64,000 nucleotides of DNA from Protoeuglena noctilucae. Taxonomy: Eukaryota. Position 1 is the stretch's first letter. The number at the start of each line of letters is the position of its first letter. Shown here piece by piece: positions 3,582 to 64,000 of the stretch. The notes beneath the pieces were generated by a model, which saw only the letters and a list, made by a program, of their open reading frames with translations, had not been told where the DNA came from and did no database searches. The DNA lies in NCBI GenBank assembly GCA_958009085.1, contig OY253679.1:930001-994000 (forward strand). The letters run 5' to 3'. Made by a program: the position numbers and the translations under genes.

Positions 3582-6500
3582 ATGTGGCCGCTCCGGTGCG
3601 CCCGGGATGATCCCCGGGCGCGGGAGGTGCCAGCTTACTCGCTCAGCCCGGACGCCTCCTCCTGGCTGACGCGGCTCACCTTCTCGTGGGTGGCGCGCCT
3701 CTTTGAGTTGGGAAGACGGAAGGACATCCAGGAAGAGGACGCGCTGCCCCATCTGAACGAGCGCGACACCGGTGAGTCACCCTGCCTACTCGCTTCTCGA
3801 TGGCTCGCGCCCCGCCCGTCGTCGTCGTCATCGCATCTTCTCTGCACCTCCGCAGTCGACGAATTGACGAGGCGCCTGCACGCGGAGATCCTCCGCATCG
3901 CACCTCACAGGTCCGCGCGCTGCAGAACACGACCGCCGCGCACCGCAGCAACCCTTGCCTCATTGCTAAGTCCCAACCGCCCCCGCCGCCCGCTCTCCGC
4001 AGCGCCGCATCCACCGCCGGCGCCCCCGCGGACCTCGGCTTCGCGTCTCTCCGCGGTCAGTTCGCAGTTGCCAACACCACCGCCCACCGCCCTACCGAGC
4101 CCAACCTGCTCGGCCGCGCTGCGCTGCGCATGCTGTGGCCCACGCTCTCCCTCAACCTCGTCACGGCGCTGGTGGAGATGGGCATTCGCCTAAGCACAGC
4201 TGTGGGTCTCAAGTACTTTCTGGCAGCGATCGTTGACCCGACCCGCCCCGCGCGTGACGGGTGGTTGTGGGGTACCTTCCTAGTAGCTCTGTCTCTCGCC
4301 ATGATGGTGACGCACCACGTGCTGTTCTTCTCCGGACTGGCGATGGGGTTTCGCATGAGGGTGGCGGCCATGGCGATGGTCTATGCGAAGATACTTCGGC
4401 TCAATGCCACCGCTTTGGCTGACATCAGCACCGGTGAGAGCGGTGGGGGGTCAAGCCGGGGTGTTTGGGGGTGTTGGTTCGAGTAATTAGGGGCATTGCA
4501 CAGTGGTAACAAACGTAGTGACTAAGTAATACAGATGCCTTAGATTAACACGTTCATAATCACACCCACCCCACATACCCTCGCAGGCCAGATCGTCGAT
4601 TCGCCCCTCACCATCCACCACGCCACGCACCACCCACCATACCACCCACCCTCACCCGCGCAACCCCACGCACACCCACTCACCCCACTCGCAGGCCAGA
4701 TCGTGAATCTGATGTCCAACGACGTCCGCCGCTTCGACGACGCATCCAGTTACCTCGCATTCATCCTAATGGGACCATTGGAGACGGTGCTGGTGTTGGT
4801 GCTGGTGGCGGTGCAGCTGGGGCCGGCACCCGCGTTCGTCGGGGTCACCATCGCGCTCGTGCTGGTGAGTGGAATTGGTATGTGATGTATGAAAAGCGTT
4901 AGGGATGTATAAGATCGGATGGGTGTGATGATTGTAGTAATGCTGCGCTGCTCCGGACGCACCCCCACCCGCACCCCCACTGCCACCTCCACTGCCACCC
5001 CCACTGCCACCCTTATCACCACCCTCACTGCCACCCTCACTGCCACCCTTCAAACCAACCCCACTGCCACCCCCACTGCCACCCTCATCACCACCCCCAC
5101 TGCCACCCTCACTGCCACCCCTCAAACCAACCCCACTGCCACCCCCACTGCCACCCCCACTGCCACCCTTATCACCACCCCCACTGCCACCCTCACTGCC
5201 ACCCTTCAAACCAACCCCACTGCCACCCCCACTGCCACCCTCATCACCACCCCCACTGCCACCCCCACCCCCACCCTCACCCACACCCCCACCCCTCCCC
5301 CCCAACCCCAGGTCCCTCTCCAGGCCACCTTCGCCCGTTCCCTCGCCTCCCTGCGGTCCCAGGCAGCGGCCGTCACCGATGAGCGCGTGCGTCTGACGGG
5401 GGAGGTCATTGAGGGTCACTTGGCGCTCAAGATGCACGCGTGGGAGGGGGCCATGGGGAAGGCGAGGGATGGTAGTGGAATGAGTGACTTTTATTAATGT
5501 TCCTTTTTGCAATCTGCGCTTGTTGCGACTGATGCCATCCGCCCCACCCTCACCCCCACTCACCCCCACTCACCCCCCATCCCCAGGCCATCTCCAGCCT
5601 CCGTGCCTCCGAGCAATCCGTCCTTCACCGCCGCGCCCGCATCATCGGCATCAACACCGCATCCCAATTCCTCATTACGCCCCTCGTATCCCTGGGCTGT
5701 TTCGGCACAGCGTGGGCCATGGGAGTCACCCTCACCGTGCCATCGGTCTTCTACACCATATCTCTGCTCAATCTCCCGAAACTGTGGATGGCGATATTCT
5801 TTCTGAAGGGAGTCGAAACGGCGACGGAGGCCGCCGTGGCGCTGCGGAGGATCAACAGGTTTCTGGCGCTGCCGGAGGCGCCGGAAACGGGGAGGGGTGG
5901 GGGTGTGGGTGGGGGTGTTAATGGGGGTGGGGGTGGGGGTGGTGCTTACAGAGCAACAGAGGGGGTGGGTGGGGGTGGGGGTGGCAAAGCGGGTGTTGTG
6001 ATGGGTAATGGGGCAAGTGACGGTGCGGGTGGGGGTGGGGCAAGTAATAGTGCAAGGGTGGATGGGAATGGAGTTGGGATGGATAAGGGCGACACTCATA
6101 TCATCGATAGTAACGGGAACGGGGCAGTGGCACCGAGTGCGGAAGTGGTGGTGGGCATGGGTGGTTGTGACTTCAGTTGGACGAACAGGGGTTGGCTTAC
6201 AGAGGCGGGGCAGGGATCGAATTTGGCAGTGGCGCGGGGTGGGATGAGCCTTGGGTCGTTGGTGTGGAGTGGGGGGGGGGCGGGGGGGGAAAGGGAGGGG
6301 TGCGGATGCGGGTGCGGGTGGGGGTGCAAGTGTCAACACACCCGGGGGTGGTGGTGGTGGTGGTGGCGGTGGTGGTATGGGTATGGGTGCGGGTGTTACT
6401 AACACCCATACAAGCATGGTCACTACAAGTGTGGGTGCGGATGTCGACGCTCCCCGCTGGTCGCTGCGCCTGCGGAGTTTCAAAAGCATCAAGAGCATCG

Positions 6501-61106: not shown

Positions 61107-64000
61107 TCACGCGTGCTCCAGCGTGGCTGCCCCCATCACGCTCTCCAAATACGCGTCCCCACTCGCGTCGCGCCTCAGATCAGAGACCAGGGAACGGGAG
61201 CGGGAGAGGAGGGCATCCGCAGAAAGCGTGTCCAGGGGCTGCGTGTGATGGGCGGGAGAGGTGGGGGGTGAGGGTGGCAGTGGGGGTGGCAGTGGGGGTG
61301 GCAGTGGGGGTGGCAGTGAGAGATGAGCAGCGTTGCGCTCAGATGCGCCGTATTACTGTCCACTCCACACCCACGCTCACCCCACCTCCCATCCCACCCC
61401 AACCACCCAGGCCCCCCCACACACACTCACCAGCTCCGCAAAATCCCTCAAAAACTTCCTCAGCCGCGCCCTCCCCCCCCTCTCCCCCTCCCCCTCCCCC
61501 CTCCCCCTCTCTCCCCCTCTTGCGCCCCCCCTCCCTCCCCTCCAACTCCTTCGCCTTCACTCTCGCCGCCTCCACCACTGCTTTGGGGAAGTTGGCATAC
61601 TCCGCGACGTGAATGCCGAAGGACTGGTCGCACGCGCCCTCTCTGACCTGGTAGAGCATCGTCAGTCGGCCCGTGTCAGAATCCACGGCCGTCTCCACGT
61701 GACTGGGGGGGAATGAGTGGGGGAGCGAGGGAGTGAGGGAGTAATGGATGGGGGATAGAGTTGGGATGTGTTGTGTTGTGTGGAGATGAGGGTGGAGTGG
61801 GAAGTGAGTGAGGAGGGCATAGGTGAACGAGTGAGGTGGGGGGTGCATGGGCACTGACTGACTGATCCCTCACGCTGTCATCCGCCCCCACTGCCCCCCT
61901 CAACACCATCCACACCCCACACACTTACCCCTTACACACACACCCGCACACTTAACCACTCTCCATCTCCCCCTCACCGGTTTGCCACCCCCACTGCCCC
62001 CCTCAGCGCCGTCAGTTCGTGGAAGTGCGTGGCGAACAGCGTCGGCGCCCCCACGCGCTCCATCAGATGCTCGGATATGGCCCACGCGAGACCAAAGCCA
62101 TCGTAAGTGCTGGTGCCGCGACCCAATTCGTCGATGATGACCAATGAACGACTGCTGGCGCCCTTGAGGATCGAGGCGGTCTGCGGGGGGGGAGGGGGGA
62201 GTGGGTGAGGAGGTAGTTGTGGAAAGTAATGGTGAGGATGAAGGGGGGTGGTGAGGGGGTGGGGCGATCTCAGCCATGACCGCATCTCTGTTACATGCAT
62301 TGCCACTAGTAGTAGTGGTAGTAATGCTTGTGACAAATCATCACTATCAGTATCTACCCATCCCCTCACCTCCACCATCTCCGGTATGAATGCATCCCTG
62401 TCCTCATCATTATCATTATTAGCTAATAATCACAATCACATCCTCACCTCCAGCATCTCGGCCATGAACGTCGACACCCCCCTCAGCTGGCTGTCCCCCG
62501 CGCCCACCCTGGCAAAGATGGCGTCGCGCACGGGGATGGTCGCGGAATCGCAGGGGACGAAGCACCCCACCTGCGCCATCAACACGCACACCCCCACCTG
62601 CCTGCGGGGGGGGTTGGAGGTGAGGGGGGGTTGATGGGGGGTGGTAACGAGGGGTGGTGATGTGCGATAGTGGTGGTTATGATGGTTATAAGGGCCCCAA
62701 CCATGCACCCATTCAACCACTTCCATCCCTCACCTGATGAATGTGCTCTTCCCTCCCATGTTGGGGCCGGAGATGATCTGGAACCAACTCTCGCCCTTCC
62801 TGTGGGTGTGGGGGAGAGAGTGTGTGGGTGGATGGGTGTCAGTCACACACACCACAGTATGACAAACATAACAGCCACTGTACTACCCCAGCCACCTCAT
62901 CACGCAGTCGTTCCTGATGAACTCCACCCCATCTAGTTGCCAATCAATGTAATCAGTGACATTCAAATACCCCCACTCATCTCACCTCATCACGCAGTCG
63001 TTCTTGATGAACTCCACCCCGTCCTGCGCCTCCAGGCACGGGTGGCGGCACCCCACCAGCTCCAGCGACCCCCCATCCGCATCTTGCATGCTCGCCCGGA
63101 CGTATGGGGTGGGCGCGGATGCGGACAGATCGGCGAATCCCACCAGCACATCCAGCTCTGCCAGAAGAGACGAGACGCCCTCCCACACTTCCACGAACGT
63201 CGACGCCACCGAGACGACCTGCGGGGGGGATTGAGGAAGGGGAGGGGGGGATGAGGGGTGTGTGGGTGGGTGAAGGGGTGGGATGCGGTGGTGTGGTGGT
63301 GGTGGGGTGGTGAGTGTGGCGAGCGGGGGTGGTGCGGTTGTGCGGGGTAGCGAGGGGTCGTGCGATTGCAATTGCGATTGCGACATGCAGCATGCGATGC
63401 TGTGCTGTGCACATGGCACCCCCATGTCAACTTAACCCAATCCTCTCCCCCATCCACTCCACCCATCTCTCGCCTGCTCCACCAGCGCCTTCTGCCGGTC
63501 GTGGCAGTCCGCATCTATTACATCTACCTCCATCCACACTGTCCATACCCCCATCCACCCCTCTCGCCTGCTCCACCAGTGCCTTCTGCCTGTTCTGATA
63601 GTCCGCCTCGATCGCCTGCAGCTGCTCTGCTGCCCTGCGCATGCGCCAGCTGGTGAACTTGGTGCCGTCCTTGCGAGTCTCCAGAATGGTGAAGTCGCCG
63701 CCGCTGTAGAGATGGGGGGAGTGGATGGGGGTTGGGGTGGGGAGATGAGGTGTCATGGCAGTGCGGTGTGCAATGTGCGATGGGAGGCAAGGGGGAGAGT
63801 GATAGGGTGATGACTGGTGGTGACTGATCACCGTCACCCATATCAACGTGAAATATATCACACCCCATGATCGCAATCATTTGAGTTTCTTGCGGCACGC
63901 CTTCTCCATCAACCCACCCACCCATCACCACTACCACCACCCATATAATTGTGACATATATCACCCCCTATAGTGATAATCACCTGAGTTTCTTGCGGCA
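61107..64000 (-). CDS. MSH2: DNA mismatch repair protein MSH2, 3' part (runs off the window); apparent frameshift in a G-rich tract near 61470-61540
   Basis: [181 protein letters not shown] at 61107-61109. Confidence 0.96.
61270..61317. repeat. 12-bp minisatellite (GTGGCAGTGGGG on +, CCCCACTGCCAC on the MSH2 sense strand)
   Basis: About 4 tandem units just upstream of the last MSH2 acceptor. Confidence 0.8.

What the first reader, a model, noticed from the sequence alone, without database searches (positions are those of the whole stretch)
4430..64000. Polarised introns: G-rich 5' arm, AT-rich core, C-rich 3' arm, on whichever strand is transcribed
Seen directly: gene-body introns open with GGGGTG/GTGGG tracts after the donor, often pass through an AT-rich centre, and end with CACCCC/CCCAC tracts before the acceptor (e.g. 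4434-4694, 8669-8826, 10714-10906). In minus-strand genes the pattern mirrors relative to transcription (e.g. 23640-23855, 53940-54190, 63220-63567). GC skew therefore oscillates with exon-intron period. Inference: the complementary arms could base-pair to bring splice sites together (structure-aided intron definition). Alternatively they are G-run and C-run splicing enhancers, or G4/R-loop-forming tracts that compensate for weak GC donors and decoy sites.
Basis: partly seen in the sequence, partly recalled or inferred. Interest (0 to 1): 0.7.

Follow-up and report, generated by a model that had tools for sequence, protein, structure and literature searches.

The report
G-rich start, C-rich end introns
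In this marine green alga most introns longer than about 120 bases begin with G-run tracts and end with C-run tracts, a strong form of splicing-linked sequence bias already known from vertebrate introns, and the two ends show no sequence-specific fit to each other.

Summary
The G-to-C polarity is real. I assembled 41 introns whose borders were fixed independently of composition: 16 by RNA contigs and 25 by gap-free protein homology. The last third is C>G in 41 of 41 and the first third is G>C in 31 of 41. None shows the reverse arrangement. GGG/CCC counts are 3.41/0.07 in the first 40 nt and 0.00/6.32 in the last 40 nt.

Three points in the finding need correcting.
- **AT-rich centre:** it is not general. 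The middle third is the GC-poorest in 12 of 41, which is chance level.
- **Mirroring on the minus strand:** this is automatic, because a G-rich-to-C-rich pattern is its own reverse complement.
- **Reach of the skew:** it also extends into exons, at synonymous sites.

Specific arm pairing is not supported.
- Native arms pair no better than arms swapped between introns (-32.9 vs -32.4 kcal/mol).
- Shuffled arms pair equally well.
- Arm strengths do not co-vary within an intron (rho 0.10), but they do across an exon (rho 0.56).

GC donors do not carry stronger G arms. Canonical G4 motifs are a minority. There is no sign of a transposon origin.

Best reading: these are compositional splice-site-flanking signals, largely built from simple repeats, like vertebrate G-run/C-run intronic enhancers. 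A generic bridging helix is a possible by-product. I class it as a new variant of a known kind, of moderate interest.

The parts
4434..4694 (+). ABCC gene intron, GT donor, polarised (skew thirds +0.53/-0.40/-0.82)
   Evidence: junction gap-free against 4 ABCC homologues with residues there, of 5 aligned; skew
4865..5311 (+). ABCC intron; 3' two thirds filled by the CACCCCCACTGC satellite (-0.11/-0.83/-0.88)
5462..5586 (+). ABCC intron, GC donor (+0.54/-0.14/-1.00)
8669..8826 (+). ABCC intron (+1.00/+0.62/-0.85); MFE pairs G arm with C arm but z=-0.31 vs dinucleotide shuffles
9105..9280 (+). ABCC intron, GC donor, AT-rich body (+0.56/-0.14/-0.53)
9342..9517 (+). ABCC intron (+0.36/-0.81/-0.95)
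9662..9883 (+). ABCC intron with 150-nt AT-rich core (+0.42/+1.00/-0.59)
10117..10304 (+). ABCC intron (+0.60/+0.14/-0.66)
10714..10906 (+).
11073..11406 (+). ABCC intron (+0.50/-0.84/-0.91)
12981..13129 (-). epimerase (CSP41-like) gene intron (+0.68/-0.05/-0.47)
   Evidence: RNA contig joint in 4 runs
13315..13462 (-). intron, GC donor (+0.40/+0.16/-0.20)
13579..13705 (-). intron (+0.90/+0.13/-0.20)
13861..14000 (-). intron, only 3' polarity (-0.03/-0.70/-0.52)
14183..14280 (-). short intron, GC donor, weak polarity (+0.11/+0.16/-0.30)
14409..14489 (-). short intron, weak polarity (-0.06/-0.14/-0.26)
14632..14878 (-). GC-rich intron, essentially unpolarised (-0.12/+0.14/-0.12)
15438..15512 (+). 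short intron, unpolarised (0.00/0.00/-0.14)
15643..15733 (+). short intron, unpolarised (0.00/-0.10/-0.12)
15933..16158 (+). intron with GC..AT ends in the reference, AT-rich 3' half (+0.16/+0.13/-0.25)
16309..16487 (+). AT-rich intron (+0.06/-0.47/-0.16)
16563..16776 (+). intron, GC donor, 3' satellite ACCCCCACTGCC (-0.40/-0.87/-0.84)
20197..20311 (+). GWT1 gene intron, GC donor, weak (-0.05/-0.20/-0.25)
21304..21474 (+). GWT1 intron (+0.16/-0.50/-0.88)
21682..21900 (+). GWT1 intron (+0.79/+0.48/-0.19)
22440..22670 (+). GWT1 intron, 3' satellite CCACCCCCACTG (+0.23/-0.80/-0.79)
   Evidence: junction gap-free vs 8 chlorophyte ACOX
24000..24253 (-). ACOX intron (+0.92/+0.38/-0.75)
24599..24941 (-). 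ACOX intron, only 3' polarity (-0.36/-0.77/-0.82)
25091..25229 (-). ACOX intron (+0.12/-0.40/-0.79)
25319..25543 (-). ACOX intron (+0.55/+0.70/-0.89)
25764..25996 (-). ACOX intron, strongest case (+0.67/-0.43/-1.00); MFE -96.4, z=-2.79, ends paired
26657..26842 (-). ACOX intron, weak (0.00/-0.04/-0.28)
50041..50233 (-). EML/WD40 gene intron (+0.95/-0.13/-1.00)
   Evidence: junction gap-free vs P0122
51853..52111 (-). EML intron (+0.80/+0.69/-0.43)
53938..54188 (-).
54517..54742 (-). EML intron, GC donor (+1.00/+0.32/-0.76)
54995..55222 (-). EML intron, GC donor (+0.76/+0.02/-0.69)
55415..55576 (-). EML intron (+0.50/-0.29/-0.90)
55703..55864 (-). EML intron (+0.79/+0.56/-0.45)
56016..56202 (-). 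EML intron (+0.45/-0.76/-0.79)
4960..5310 (+). 12-mer satellite CACCCCCACTGC array (27.8 copies) forming a 3' arm
18224..18287 (-). same satellite type; G-rich in the sense of the minus-strand gene, near the predicted donor at 18312
   Evidence: intron 17673-18312 is a gene-finder call only
61268..61318 (-). GTGGGGGTGGCA array on + strand = C-rich sense 3' arm of MSH2 intron 61239-61566
   Evidence: gene-finder intron

Best explanation
The polarity is a compositional signal anchored on the splice sites rather than a matched pair of arms.

**What is shown**
- A tract rich in G runs, with T as the minor base (GGGTG, GGTGG, GTGGG), follows the donor.
- A tract rich in C runs, with A and T as minor bases (CACCC, CCACC, CCCTC), precedes the acceptor.
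- Each tract is typically 50-100 nt long. Many are expanded simple repeats, including a 12-mer satellite, CACCCCCACTGC.

**What is inferred**
- The tracts act as intron/exon-definition elements read separately at each splice site. This is how vertebrate G-triplet and C-rich intronic splicing enhancers work in GC-rich introns whose U-rich polypyrimidine tract has decayed.
- In this 64% GC chlorophyte the acceptor-proximal tract is C-rich rather than U-rich, and a branch consensus is rarely recognisable.
- Selection on splicing therefore tolerates G-run repeats only on the donor side and C-run repeats only on the acceptor side. That constraint also tilts synonymous sites at exon ends.
- Because G runs and C runs are complementary, any 5' arm can pair with any 3' arm. 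A generic end-to-end helix is predicted, but nothing shows it is the selected property.
For: - **Anchoring at splice sites.**
  - G peaks in the first 20 nt after the donor, and C peaks at -30 to -1 before the acceptor.
  - Exon ends share the sign of the adjoining arm. In 84 internal exons the skew goes from -0.03 in the first third to +0.10 in the last (p=0.0013).
  - At codon position 3 it goes from -0.13 to +0.14 (p=0.00013).
- **Strength and consistency.**
  - 41 of 41 validated introns are C>G in the 3' third and 31 of 41 are G>C in the 5' third.
  - GGG/CCC counts are 3.41/0.07 in the first 40 nt and 0.00/6.32 in the last 40 nt.
  - The reverse arrangement is seen in 0 of 41 and 0 of 91.
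- **Independence of the two arms.**
  - Across one intron, rho is 0.10 (p=0.56).
  - Co-occurrence is 11 observed against 10.2 expected (Fisher p=0.73).
  - Native duplexes equal swapped ones, and in the larger set they also equal mono-shuffled arms.
- **Weak classical signals.**
  - At -20 to -11 the composition is C 0.54 and T 0.21-0.23.
  - CTRAY is present in only 33 of 91 introns.
  - The AG-free zone has a median of 47 nt and is at least 100 nt in 18 of 91.
  - AG density is 1.90 per 100 nt in 3' halves against 4.32 in 5' halves.
- **Tied to gene structure, not to a free-running period.** There is no skew periodicity in the 3.3 kb exon.
- **Precedent in the literature.**
[quoted passage not shown] A stem-loop between them was tested and rejected for LCAT intron 4.
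  - PMC3606033 (abstract): G-rich elements replace U-rich ones in GC-rich isochores.
  - PMC4691745 (section 10 read): 16% of highly structured human introns have at least 3 GGG in the first 40 nt and at least 3 CCC in the last 40 nt.
Against: - No protein that binds G runs or C runs was identified in this organism, and function was not tested.
- The C-rich tract reaches 100 nt or more upstream of the acceptor, further than a polypyrimidine tract or AG-exclusion zone normally needs.
- The minor base of the 3' arm is A as often as T (CACCC is more frequent than CCCTC or CTCCC). That mirrors the T of the 5' arm and is what pairing or a common repeat origin would predict, not a pyrimidine-tract function.
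- Polarity rises with intron length (rho 0.50 in 91 introns; 0.33 in the 41 validated). This fits a need to bridge long introns, although arms also add length by themselves.
- The 5' arm is much weaker in the 16 RNA-supported introns (9 of 16) than in the homology-validated ones (22 of 25, the difference).
- The whole analysis covers one 64 kb window with about 17 genes.
Confidence: 0.45

Rival explanations
1. Generic RNA bridging is the selected function. Low-complexity G/U-rich 5' arms and C/A-rich 3' arms zip together co-transcriptionally and bring the donor next to the branch/acceptor region. This would work like the (GT)n-(AC)n introns of zebrafish, without needing arm-specific sequence.
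For: - There is motif-level reverse complementarity: 13 of the top 20 5-mers, and Spearman 0.52 for reverse complement against 0.33 for plain complement.
- Folding 73 introns gives 24.9 end-to-end pairs against 12.1 after whole-intron shuffling. 56 of 73 have at least 10 such pairs, and the relative end-to-end distance is 0.06 against 0.08-0.09.
- Example folds pair the two ends.
- Polarity is absent below 100 nt and full above 150 nt.
- Swapped arms pairing as well as native ones is what simple-repeat arms should do, so that test does not exclude this model.
- PMC4691745 (abstract, section 10) shows such a mechanism exists.
Against: - The signature used for zebrafish, co-occurrence across introns but not across exons, is reversed here. 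Across an intron rho is 0.10 (Fisher p=0.73). Across an exon rho is 0.56 (p=0.004, 24 pairs). The 91-intron set gives the same pattern, 0.15 against 0.47.
- The bridging count equals that of within-thirds shuffles (24.6), so it follows from composition alone.
- Stability is not consistently above dinucleotide shuffles: z=-0.31 for 8669-8826 and -2.79 for 25764-25996.
- 10 of 41 validated introns lack a G-rich 5' third.
- In the human case where G-C pairing was tested by mutation, it was rejected (PMC2481429, passage read).
Confidence: 0.22
2. The pattern is largely non-adaptive. The genome is prone to expansion of (GGGTG)n/(CACCC)n-type simple repeats. Only a weak orientation filter, or a splice-site-linked mutational asymmetry, decides which strand survives where. 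On this view the arms have no positive role.
For: - Many arms are tandem arrays. The same G-rich repeats also occur inside coding sequence of the ABCC gene and elsewhere.
- Longer introns are the polarised ones, as expected if arms are what lengthened them.
- The two arms of an intron are independent.
- Polarity falls as regional GC rises (rho -0.52), which suggests a dependence on local mutational regime.
Against: - An orientation bias of 41 of 41 and 0 reversed cases needs strong selection or a strongly asymmetric process that changes sign in mid-intron and mid-exon. I know of no such mutational process.
- In 10 of 41 validated introns the G- and C-rich arms flank a middle third below 45% GC (examples). 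If those low-GC cores reflect neutral drift, the arms are being maintained against it.
- Synonymous sites at exon ends follow the same sign.
Confidence: 0.18
3. The polarised introns descend from intron-generating DNA transposons (introners or MITE-like elements). Their G-rich terminal inverted repeats flank an AT-rich body, which would automatically read G-rich to C-rich in either insertion orientation.
For: - The architecture is self-reverse-complementary.
- Polarised introns are mostly 150-450 nt long.
- A metagenome relative, L001, has 85% amino-acid identity in ACOX. It has one ACOX intron, at another position, and no intron in the aligned part of the CSP41-like gene (residues 131-454). 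The window has 8 and 7 introns in these genes.
- No ACOX intron position is shared exactly with any of 7 related loci examined.
Against: - With low-complexity filtering, 124 introns share no similarity apart from overlapping alternative calls and a few weak repeat-type matches.
- Core similarity among 37 polarised introns comes down to a few top pairs of about 77-89% identity, which I attribute to the satellite without checking the pair identities.
- There is no target-site duplication: exon-end against intron-end matches are 1.88 native and 1.93 swapped.
- Terminal inverted identity over 24 nt is 8.90 native against 8.59 swapped.
- The model does not explain the exon-side skew.
Confidence: 0.07
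4. The tracts work at the DNA or nascent-RNA level as G-quadruplex or R-loop formers that pace RNA polymerase near splice sites.
For: - The non-template strand is G-rich just after donors, which favours R-loops.
- 33 of 91 introns carry a canonical four-run C motif in the 3' half, which is G4 potential on the template strand.
- G4 motifs are reported enriched near splice junctions in other species (PMC9065059, start of the abstract in a search listing).
Against: - Only 12 of 91 introns have a canonical G4 motif in the sense 5' half.
- The polarity holds in introns without such motifs.
- The link to GC donors is absent.
Confidence: 0.05

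Closest known systems
G-triplet and C-rich intronic splicing enhancers of GC-rich vertebrate introns (Murray et al. 2008, PMC2481429, passages read; Voelker et al. 2012, PMC3606033, abstract; McCullough and Berget, recalled)
   Same: G runs lie downstream of the donor and C runs upstream of a weak, U-poor polypyrimidine tract. The setting is GC-rich sequence. 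The two motifs are independent and additive.
   Different: - Here the tracts are long (50-100 nt or more), often true tandem repeats, and present in most introns over 120 nt rather than a subclass.
- The organism is a chlorophyte alga with no known binding proteins for these tracts.
- The skew also reaches synonymous sites in exons.
(AC)m-(GT)n structured introns of zebrafish and the GGG...CCC human subclass (Lin et al. 2016, PMC4691745, abstract and section 10 read)
   Same: Complementary simple repeats sit at opposite intron ends and are predicted to form a bridging helix. The human subclass criterion (at least 3 GGG in the first 40 nt and at least 3 CCC in the last 40 nt) is met by 11 of 41 validated and 24 of 91 total introns here.
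   Different: The defining co-occurrence across introns but not across exons is not found and is in fact reversed. The repeat unit is GGGTG/CACCC-like, not GT/AC. No experimental evidence exists.
Introners, intron-generating transposons of Micromonas, Aureococcus and others (10.1101/2022.06.06.494994 and PMC12130899, search listing and abstract starts only; Huff et al. 2016, recalled)
   Same: The organism is a marine GC-rich alga. Intron content is lineage-specific relative to a close relative. The size range is 150-450 nt and the ends are palindromic in composition.
   Different: There is no sequence family, no target-site duplication and no specific terminal inverted repeat in this window.
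Splicing-coupled strand asymmetries at intron ends in human genes (Touchon et al. 2004, recalled, not read here)
   Same: G>C and T>A after the donor, and a pyrimidine excess before the acceptor, superimposed on gene-wide skews.
   Different: The magnitude here is far larger, and the 3' excess is of C with A about equal to T rather than of C plus T.
Intron looping by hnRNP A/B and F/H sites at both intron ends (Martinez-Contreras et al. 2006, PMC1326234, abstract start only)
   Same: Elements near both ends of an intron stimulate splicing by bringing the ends together.
   Different: That mechanism uses the same kind of site at both ends and protein-protein contact. Here the two ends carry opposite compositions.

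Membership tests
Structured bridging introns of the (AC)m-(GT)n type | Complementary simple repeats at opposite ends of the intron | tested here: met
   The top 5-mers are GGGTG/GGTGG at the 5' end and CACCC/CCACC at the 3' end, and 13 of the top 20 are reverse complements. Tandem arrays are listed.
Structured bridging introns of the (AC)m-(GT)n type | The two repeats co-occur across introns but not across exons | tested here: not met
   Validated set: 11 observed against 10.2 expected (Fisher p=0.73). Rho is 0.10 across an intron and 0.56 across an exon. The 91-intron set gives an odds ratio of 2.3 (p=0.059), with rho 0.15 against 0.47.
Structured bridging introns of the (AC)m-(GT)n type | Predicted bridging structure that is more stable than controls | tested here: inconclusive
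   Bridging pairs are 24.9 native, 12.1 after whole-intron shuffling and 24.6 after within-thirds shuffling. Z-scores against dinucleotide shuffles are -2.79 and -0.31 for the two introns tested.
Structured bridging introns of the (AC)m-(GT)n type | Splicing depends on the repeats and not on U2AF2 | not testable with these tools
   Needs minigene or in vitro splicing assays.
G-run / C-run intronic splicing enhancers | GGG enrichment just downstream of the donor | tested here: met
   GGG 3.41 against CCC 0.07 per first 40 nt in 41 introns. G is 0.47-0.52 in the first 20 nt.
G-run / C-run intronic splicing enhancers | CCC enrichment upstream of a U-poor polypyrimidine tract | tested here: met
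   CCC 6.32 against GGG 0.00 per last 40 nt. At -20 to -11 the composition is C 0.54 and T 0.21-0.23.
G-run / C-run intronic splicing enhancers | Association with weak core splice signals | tested here: inconclusive
   GC donors do not have G-richer arms (0.36 against 0.42, p=0.11). A branch consensus CTRAY is present in only 33 of 91 introns.
G-run / C-run intronic splicing enhancers | Mutation of the motifs lowers splicing; bound by G-run- or poly(C)-binding proteins | not testable with these tools
Introners (intron-generating transposons) | Many introns share alignable sequence | tested here: not met
   BLAST with low-complexity filtering over 124 introns finds only self-overlapping calls and a few weak repeat matches. 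Among 37 cores, the few matches well above shuffled controls are a handful of pairs of about 77-89% identity, which I attribute to the satellite.
Introners (intron-generating transposons) | Target-site duplication at the intron borders | tested here: not met
   Native against swapped suffix match is 1.88 against 1.93. Identities in the last 10 nt are 3.92 against 4.03, permutation p=0.87.
Introners (intron-generating transposons) | Specific terminal inverted repeats | tested here: not met
   Ungapped identities over 24 nt are 8.90 native against 8.59 swapped.
Introners (intron-generating transposons) | Presence/absence differences between close relatives | tested here: inconclusive
   Relative L001 lacks the window's ACOX and CSP41-like introns over the aligned parts. 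Gain and loss cannot be told apart.

The most novel reading that the evidence does not exclude
This alga has a repeat-built exon-marking system. Each internal exon would be bracketed by an upstream C-run tract and a downstream G-run tract whose strengths co-vary (rho 0.56 across exons against 0.10 across introns). The same bias is imprinted on synonymous sites at the exon's two ends. The unit under selection would then be the exon with its two flanks, either as a paired structure or as a two-sided protein landing pad. On this reading intron polarity is only the view from the other side. This would be a form of exon definition in a compact unicellular genome, where intron definition is expected.
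Probability: 0.15. Interest if true: 0.7.

Novelty: new variant of a known kind. Interest (0 to 1): 0.45.

Why it matters
GC-rich algal genomes are hard to annotate. A strong composition rule (G runs after donors, C runs before acceptors, never the reverse) could improve intron calling there. My own finder, which ignored this rule, recovered only 12 of 16 RNA-supported introns.

Biologically, the finding suggests that the vertebrate solution for GC-rich introns may have arisen independently in a chlorophyte, in a more extreme and repeat-driven form. In that solution G-run and C-run elements stand in for U-rich signals.

It also offers a natural system to separate two ideas that are hard to tell apart in vertebrates, protein-read enhancers and end-to-end RNA bridging. 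The within-intron against across-exon covariation seen here points away from simple bridging.

Tried and rejected
- **Whole genome.** None is held for this window, so every count is from 64 kb.
- **Earlier notes of this scan.** Nothing was found, either by place or by words.
- **First single-strand gene finder.** It chained genes across strands and I replaced it.
- **Two-strand finder.**
  - It recovers 12 of 16 RNA-supported introns.
  - It mis-models the middle of the ABCC gene (5878-8527) and two EML introns (52142-52399 and 51253-51627), which hide exons.
  - Those were excluded from the validated set.
- **Junctions left out of the validated set as uncertain.**
  - EML: 57675-57931, 56965-57656, 56601-56819, 53466-53757, 52996-53279, 50880-51091, 50531-50680 and 49510-49592.
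  - ABCC: 3277-3646, 3772-3855 and 3911-4002.
- **Read laying.** It listed 15 joints and withheld 19. Cover of the ABCC gene was too thin to resolve its repeats.
- **Organism guesses from the literature.**
  - Pelagomonas: rejected at 0.45 introns per gene (PMC9481584, passages read).
  - Chloropicon: rejected at fewer than 1 intron per gene and 57-60% GC (PMC12301720 and PMC6731263, passages read).
  - Emiliania huxleyi: considered because of its roughly 60% GC-AG donors (PMC4028052, passages read), but rejected.
  - Best named homologues here are chlorophytes. ACOX is at most 68% identical to core chlorophytes. EML is 59% identical to a Pedinophyceae sp. protein.
- **Protein Atlas look-up.** It gave only the family and no useful taxonomy.
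- **Shared ancestral intron positions.** Three ACOX positions lie about 5 residues from introns of low-GC homologues (L017 and others). Phase and position do not match exactly, so I make no claim of shared ancestry.
- **Nucleosome-type free periodicity of skew.** It is not seen in the 3.3 kb exon.
- **Exon length or exon GC as the cause of across-exon covariation.** Not supported. The partial correlation controlling for exon GC is 0.56. Exon length against arm strength gives rho 0.22 and 0.36, neither significant.
- **Prior description in an alga.** Literature searches found no description of this polarity in an alga. Those three searches are the only basis for saying I did not find it in print.

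Full report
**What the window is**

The window is 63.7% GC and comes from an intron-rich eukaryote. The stretch 4000-13999 occurs in marine metagenome and metatranscriptome runs. No whole genome is held.

Single-exon translations find their best named relatives among chlorophyte green algae. Acyl-CoA oxidase is at most 68% identical to core chlorophytes. An EML/WD40 protein is 59% identical to a Pedinophyceae sp. protein.

I wrote a two-strand gene finder that scores codon periodicity and only short splice-site matrices, and does not use intron composition. It gives 15 gene models with 120 introns. The genes are ALB3/YidC, an ABCC transporter, a CSP41-like epimerase, a LON-N domain protein, a tubulin-like protein, GWT1, acyl-CoA oxidase, an RluA-type pseudouridine synthase, two tandem alcohol dehydrogenases, a long low-complexity TLDc protein, EML, a Rab GDI/REP-like protein, MSH2 and others. 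It recovers 12 of 16 RNA-supported introns.

**A set of introns fixed independently of composition**

Metatranscriptome contigs laid on 3000-22999 gave 15 listed joints plus one read from the contig pieces. Nineteen more were not shown. After resolving the cut ambiguity these are 16 introns.

I then checked predicted junctions against full-length homologues.
- 7 acyl-CoA oxidase junctions are gap-free against 8 chlorophyte proteins.
- 8 EML junctions are gap-free against P0122 or P0123.
- 10 ABCC junctions are gap-free against the homologues that have residues there, out of 5 ABCC proteins aligned.

Junctions in variable regions were left out. So were three predicted 'introns' that in fact hide exons (ABCC 5878-8527, EML 52142-52399 and 51253-51627). 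The result is 41 validated introns, 19 on the plus strand and 22 on the minus strand. Nine have GC donors.

**The observation**

With 6 nt trimmed at each end of the validated introns:
- The 5' third is G>C in 31 of 41 (p=0.0015).
- The 3' third is C>G in 41 of 41 (p=9e-13).
- Both hold in 31, and the reverse arrangement in none.
- Mean skew is +0.40, -0.12 and -0.60.
- GGG/CCC per 40 nt is 3.41/0.07 at the start and 0.00/6.32 at the end.

The RNA-supported subset is weaker at the 5' side (9 of 16) but complete at the 3' side (16 of 16). The gene-finder set of 88 gives 67 and 75.

The metagene profile shows the following.
- G is 0.47-0.52 over the first 20 nt and decays to about 0.35 by +100, with T>A.
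- C is 0.36-0.54 over the last 100 nt, with G at 0.11-0.19 and A about equal to T.

The AT-rich centre is not a general feature. The middle third is the GC-poorest in 12 of 41 (chance 13.7), and the thirds average 0.54, 0.55 and 0.58 GC. Ten of 41 do have a middle third below 45% GC.

Polarity is absent in introns under 100 nt (mean index 0.12, n=14) and full above 150 nt (about 1.0-1.2). It falls with regional GC (rho -0.52), and both effects are independent in a regression.

**A point of logic**

An interval that is G-rich at its 5' end and C-rich at its 3' end has exactly the same description on the complementary strand. Read along the plus strand, every intron runs from G-rich to C-rich whatever the direction of its gene.

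The 'mirroring' in minus-strand genes is therefore automatic and carries no extra evidence about transcription. What is informative is that introns always have this arrangement and never the opposite, and that exons have the opposite one.

**The skew continues into exons**

In 84 internal exons the first third has skew -0.03 and the last third +0.10 (p=0.0013). At third codon positions the values are -0.13 and +0.14 (p=0.00013).

The skew is thus a wave with its G maximum at donors and its C maximum at acceptors. The wave has the exon-plus-intron period in the intron-rich stretch 49500-57000. There is no period inside the 3.3 kb exon 42951-46277, so it is tied to splice sites rather than to an independent chromatin-like periodicity.

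**Are the arms a matched pair?**

Arms were taken as 60 nt, in introns of at least 140 nt.

| Test | Native | Control |
|---|---|---|
| Arm duplex, 63 introns | -34.8 kcal/mol | swapped -32.7; mono-shuffled -34.6 |
| Arm duplex, 33 validated | -32.9 kcal/mol | swapped -32.4 |
| Bridging pairs, 73 whole introns | 24.9 | whole shuffle 12.1; within-thirds shuffle 24.6 |

- In the 63-intron set the native percentile is 0.45, and 0 of 63 fall below the 5th percentile. A permutation of mean energy gives z=-2.1.
- In the validated set the native percentile is 0.49 (p=0.82).
- Whole-intron folds therefore show that polarity doubles the predicted end-to-end pairing, but through composition only.
- With dinucleotide shuffles, 25764-25996 is more stable than expected (z=-2.79) and 8669-8826 is not (z=-0.31). 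Both MFE structures pair the two ends.
- The decisive test used for zebrafish structured introns fails here. Strong arms do not co-occur within an intron (11 against 10.2 expected, Fisher p=0.73; rho 0.10). The C arm upstream of an exon and the G arm downstream of it do co-vary (rho 0.56, p=0.004, 24 pairs).
- The 91-intron set shows the same contrast, 0.15 against 0.47. A few of the 24 pairs skip a short intron, the sample is small and several correlations were tried, so I treat this as suggestive.

**Motifs**

- The commonest 5-mers in 5' halves are GGGGG, GGGTG, GGTGG, GGGGT, TGGGG and GTGGG.
- In 3' halves they are CCCCC, CACCC, CCACC, ACCCC, CCCAC and CCCCA.
- Thirteen of the top 20 are reverse complements of each other.
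- A 12-mer satellite, CACCCCCACTGC, recurs in several introns, always C-rich in the sense strand near the acceptor or G-rich near the donor.
- Canonical G4 motifs are present in the sense 5' half of 12 of 91 introns. Four-run C motifs are present in the 3' half of 33 of 91.

**The other ideas in the finding**

- GC donors make up 24 of 91 introns (9 of 41 validated, 5 of 16 RNA-supported). They do not have G-richer arms (0.36 against 0.42, p=0.11).
- Decoy donors within 2 bits of the real one are rare: 6 in 5 of 41 introns.
- The AG-free zone before the acceptor has a median of 47 nt and is at least 100 nt in 18 of 91. CTRAY is found in only 33 of 91.

**Origin**

The closest metagenome relatives are L001 and L002, at 71-73% GC with ACOX HSPs 85% and 72% identical.
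- They have a single ACOX intron, at another position, that is 82-93% GC and C>G throughout.
- They have no intron in the aligned part of the CSP41-like gene (residues 131-454).
- The window has 8 and 7 introns in these genes.
- None of the window's 8 ACOX intron positions coincides exactly with an intron in 7 related loci.

Intron content is therefore lineage-specific, but gain and loss cannot be separated.

A transposon origin finds no support in the window.
- There is no alignable family after low-complexity filtering.
- Core similarity is confined to a few pairs that I attribute to the satellite.
- There is no target-site duplication and no specific terminal inverted repeat.

**Reading**

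The best-supported account is that these are splice-site-flanking compositional signals, mostly built by simple-repeat expansion. Their orientation would be held by selection on splicing. This is the algal counterpart of vertebrate G-triplet and C-rich intronic enhancers that take over when U-rich signals decay in GC-rich DNA (PMC2481429, passages; PMC3606033, abstract).

The arrangement of GGG at the start and CCC at the end is itself described for a subclass of human introns (PMC4691745, section 10). Generic bridging remains possible and is the main rival. The lack of within-intron coupling, and the rejection of pairing in the one human intron where it was tested, weigh against it.

What is new here:
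- the strength and near-universality of the bias in introns over about 120 nt;
- its repeat-built nature in a chlorophyte;
- its extension into synonymous sites;
- the across-exon covariation.

Three literature searches found no description of it in algae.

Noticed in passing
window 15933-16158: An RNA-supported junction seen in 4 runs has ends reading GC..AT in this assembly, with no canonical alternative within the cut ambiguity. This is either a non-canonical acceptor or a last-base difference between the assembly and the expressed strains.
   Followed up: partly
whole window: The share of GC-AG introns is very high: 5 of 16 RNA-supported, 9 of 41 validated and 24 of 91 overall. The acceptor context is strongly CGCAG|G or CCCCAG|G.
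   Followed up: partly
L001:1276-3395 and 6002-7099; L002: Metagenome relatives at 71-73% GC carry ACOX (HSPs 85% and 72% identical) and a CSP41-like gene about 2.6 kb apart. ACOX has only one intron, which is very GC-rich and unpolarised, and the CSP41-like gene has none over the aligned part. The same two genes lie about 10 kb apart in the window and hold 8 and 7 introns.
   Followed up: partly
window 5878-6700 and 7285-8295: Long G-rich open stretches inside the ABCC gene would encode Gly/Val/Trp-rich low complexity around nucleotide-binding domain 1. My gene finder called them introns, but homologues show that NBD1 exons must lie here. The real exon structure is unresolved.
   Followed up: partly
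window 4580-4596 and 4688-4704: There is an exact 17-nt direct repeat. The acceptor and the first 10 nt of the next exon are duplicated 108 nt upstream inside intron 4434-4694. This could be a possible alternative 3' splice site or the trace of a tandem duplication.
   Followed up: no
window 35918-37626 and 38606-40335 (minus strand): Two tandem paralogous zinc-type alcohol dehydrogenase genes were merged with a third gene by my finder. Their introns sit at matching positions, have diverged in sequence and are of the unpolarised GC-rich kind.
   Followed up: no
window, 24 exon-flanking arm pairs (listed): The C content of the arm upstream of an exon correlates with the G content of the arm downstream of it (rho 0.56, p=0.004). 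The two arms of one intron do not correlate (rho 0.10). Exon length and exon GC do not explain it.
   Followed up: partly
window 52142-52399 and 51253-51627 (minus strand): The EML gene model lacks about 50 residues at each of these two places relative to homologues P0122 and P0123, so unrecognised exons lie inside these predicted introns.
   Followed up: no
window 63219-63567 (minus strand): My finder splits this into two introns around an 18-nt exon (63474-63491). Which is right is not settled.
   Followed up: no
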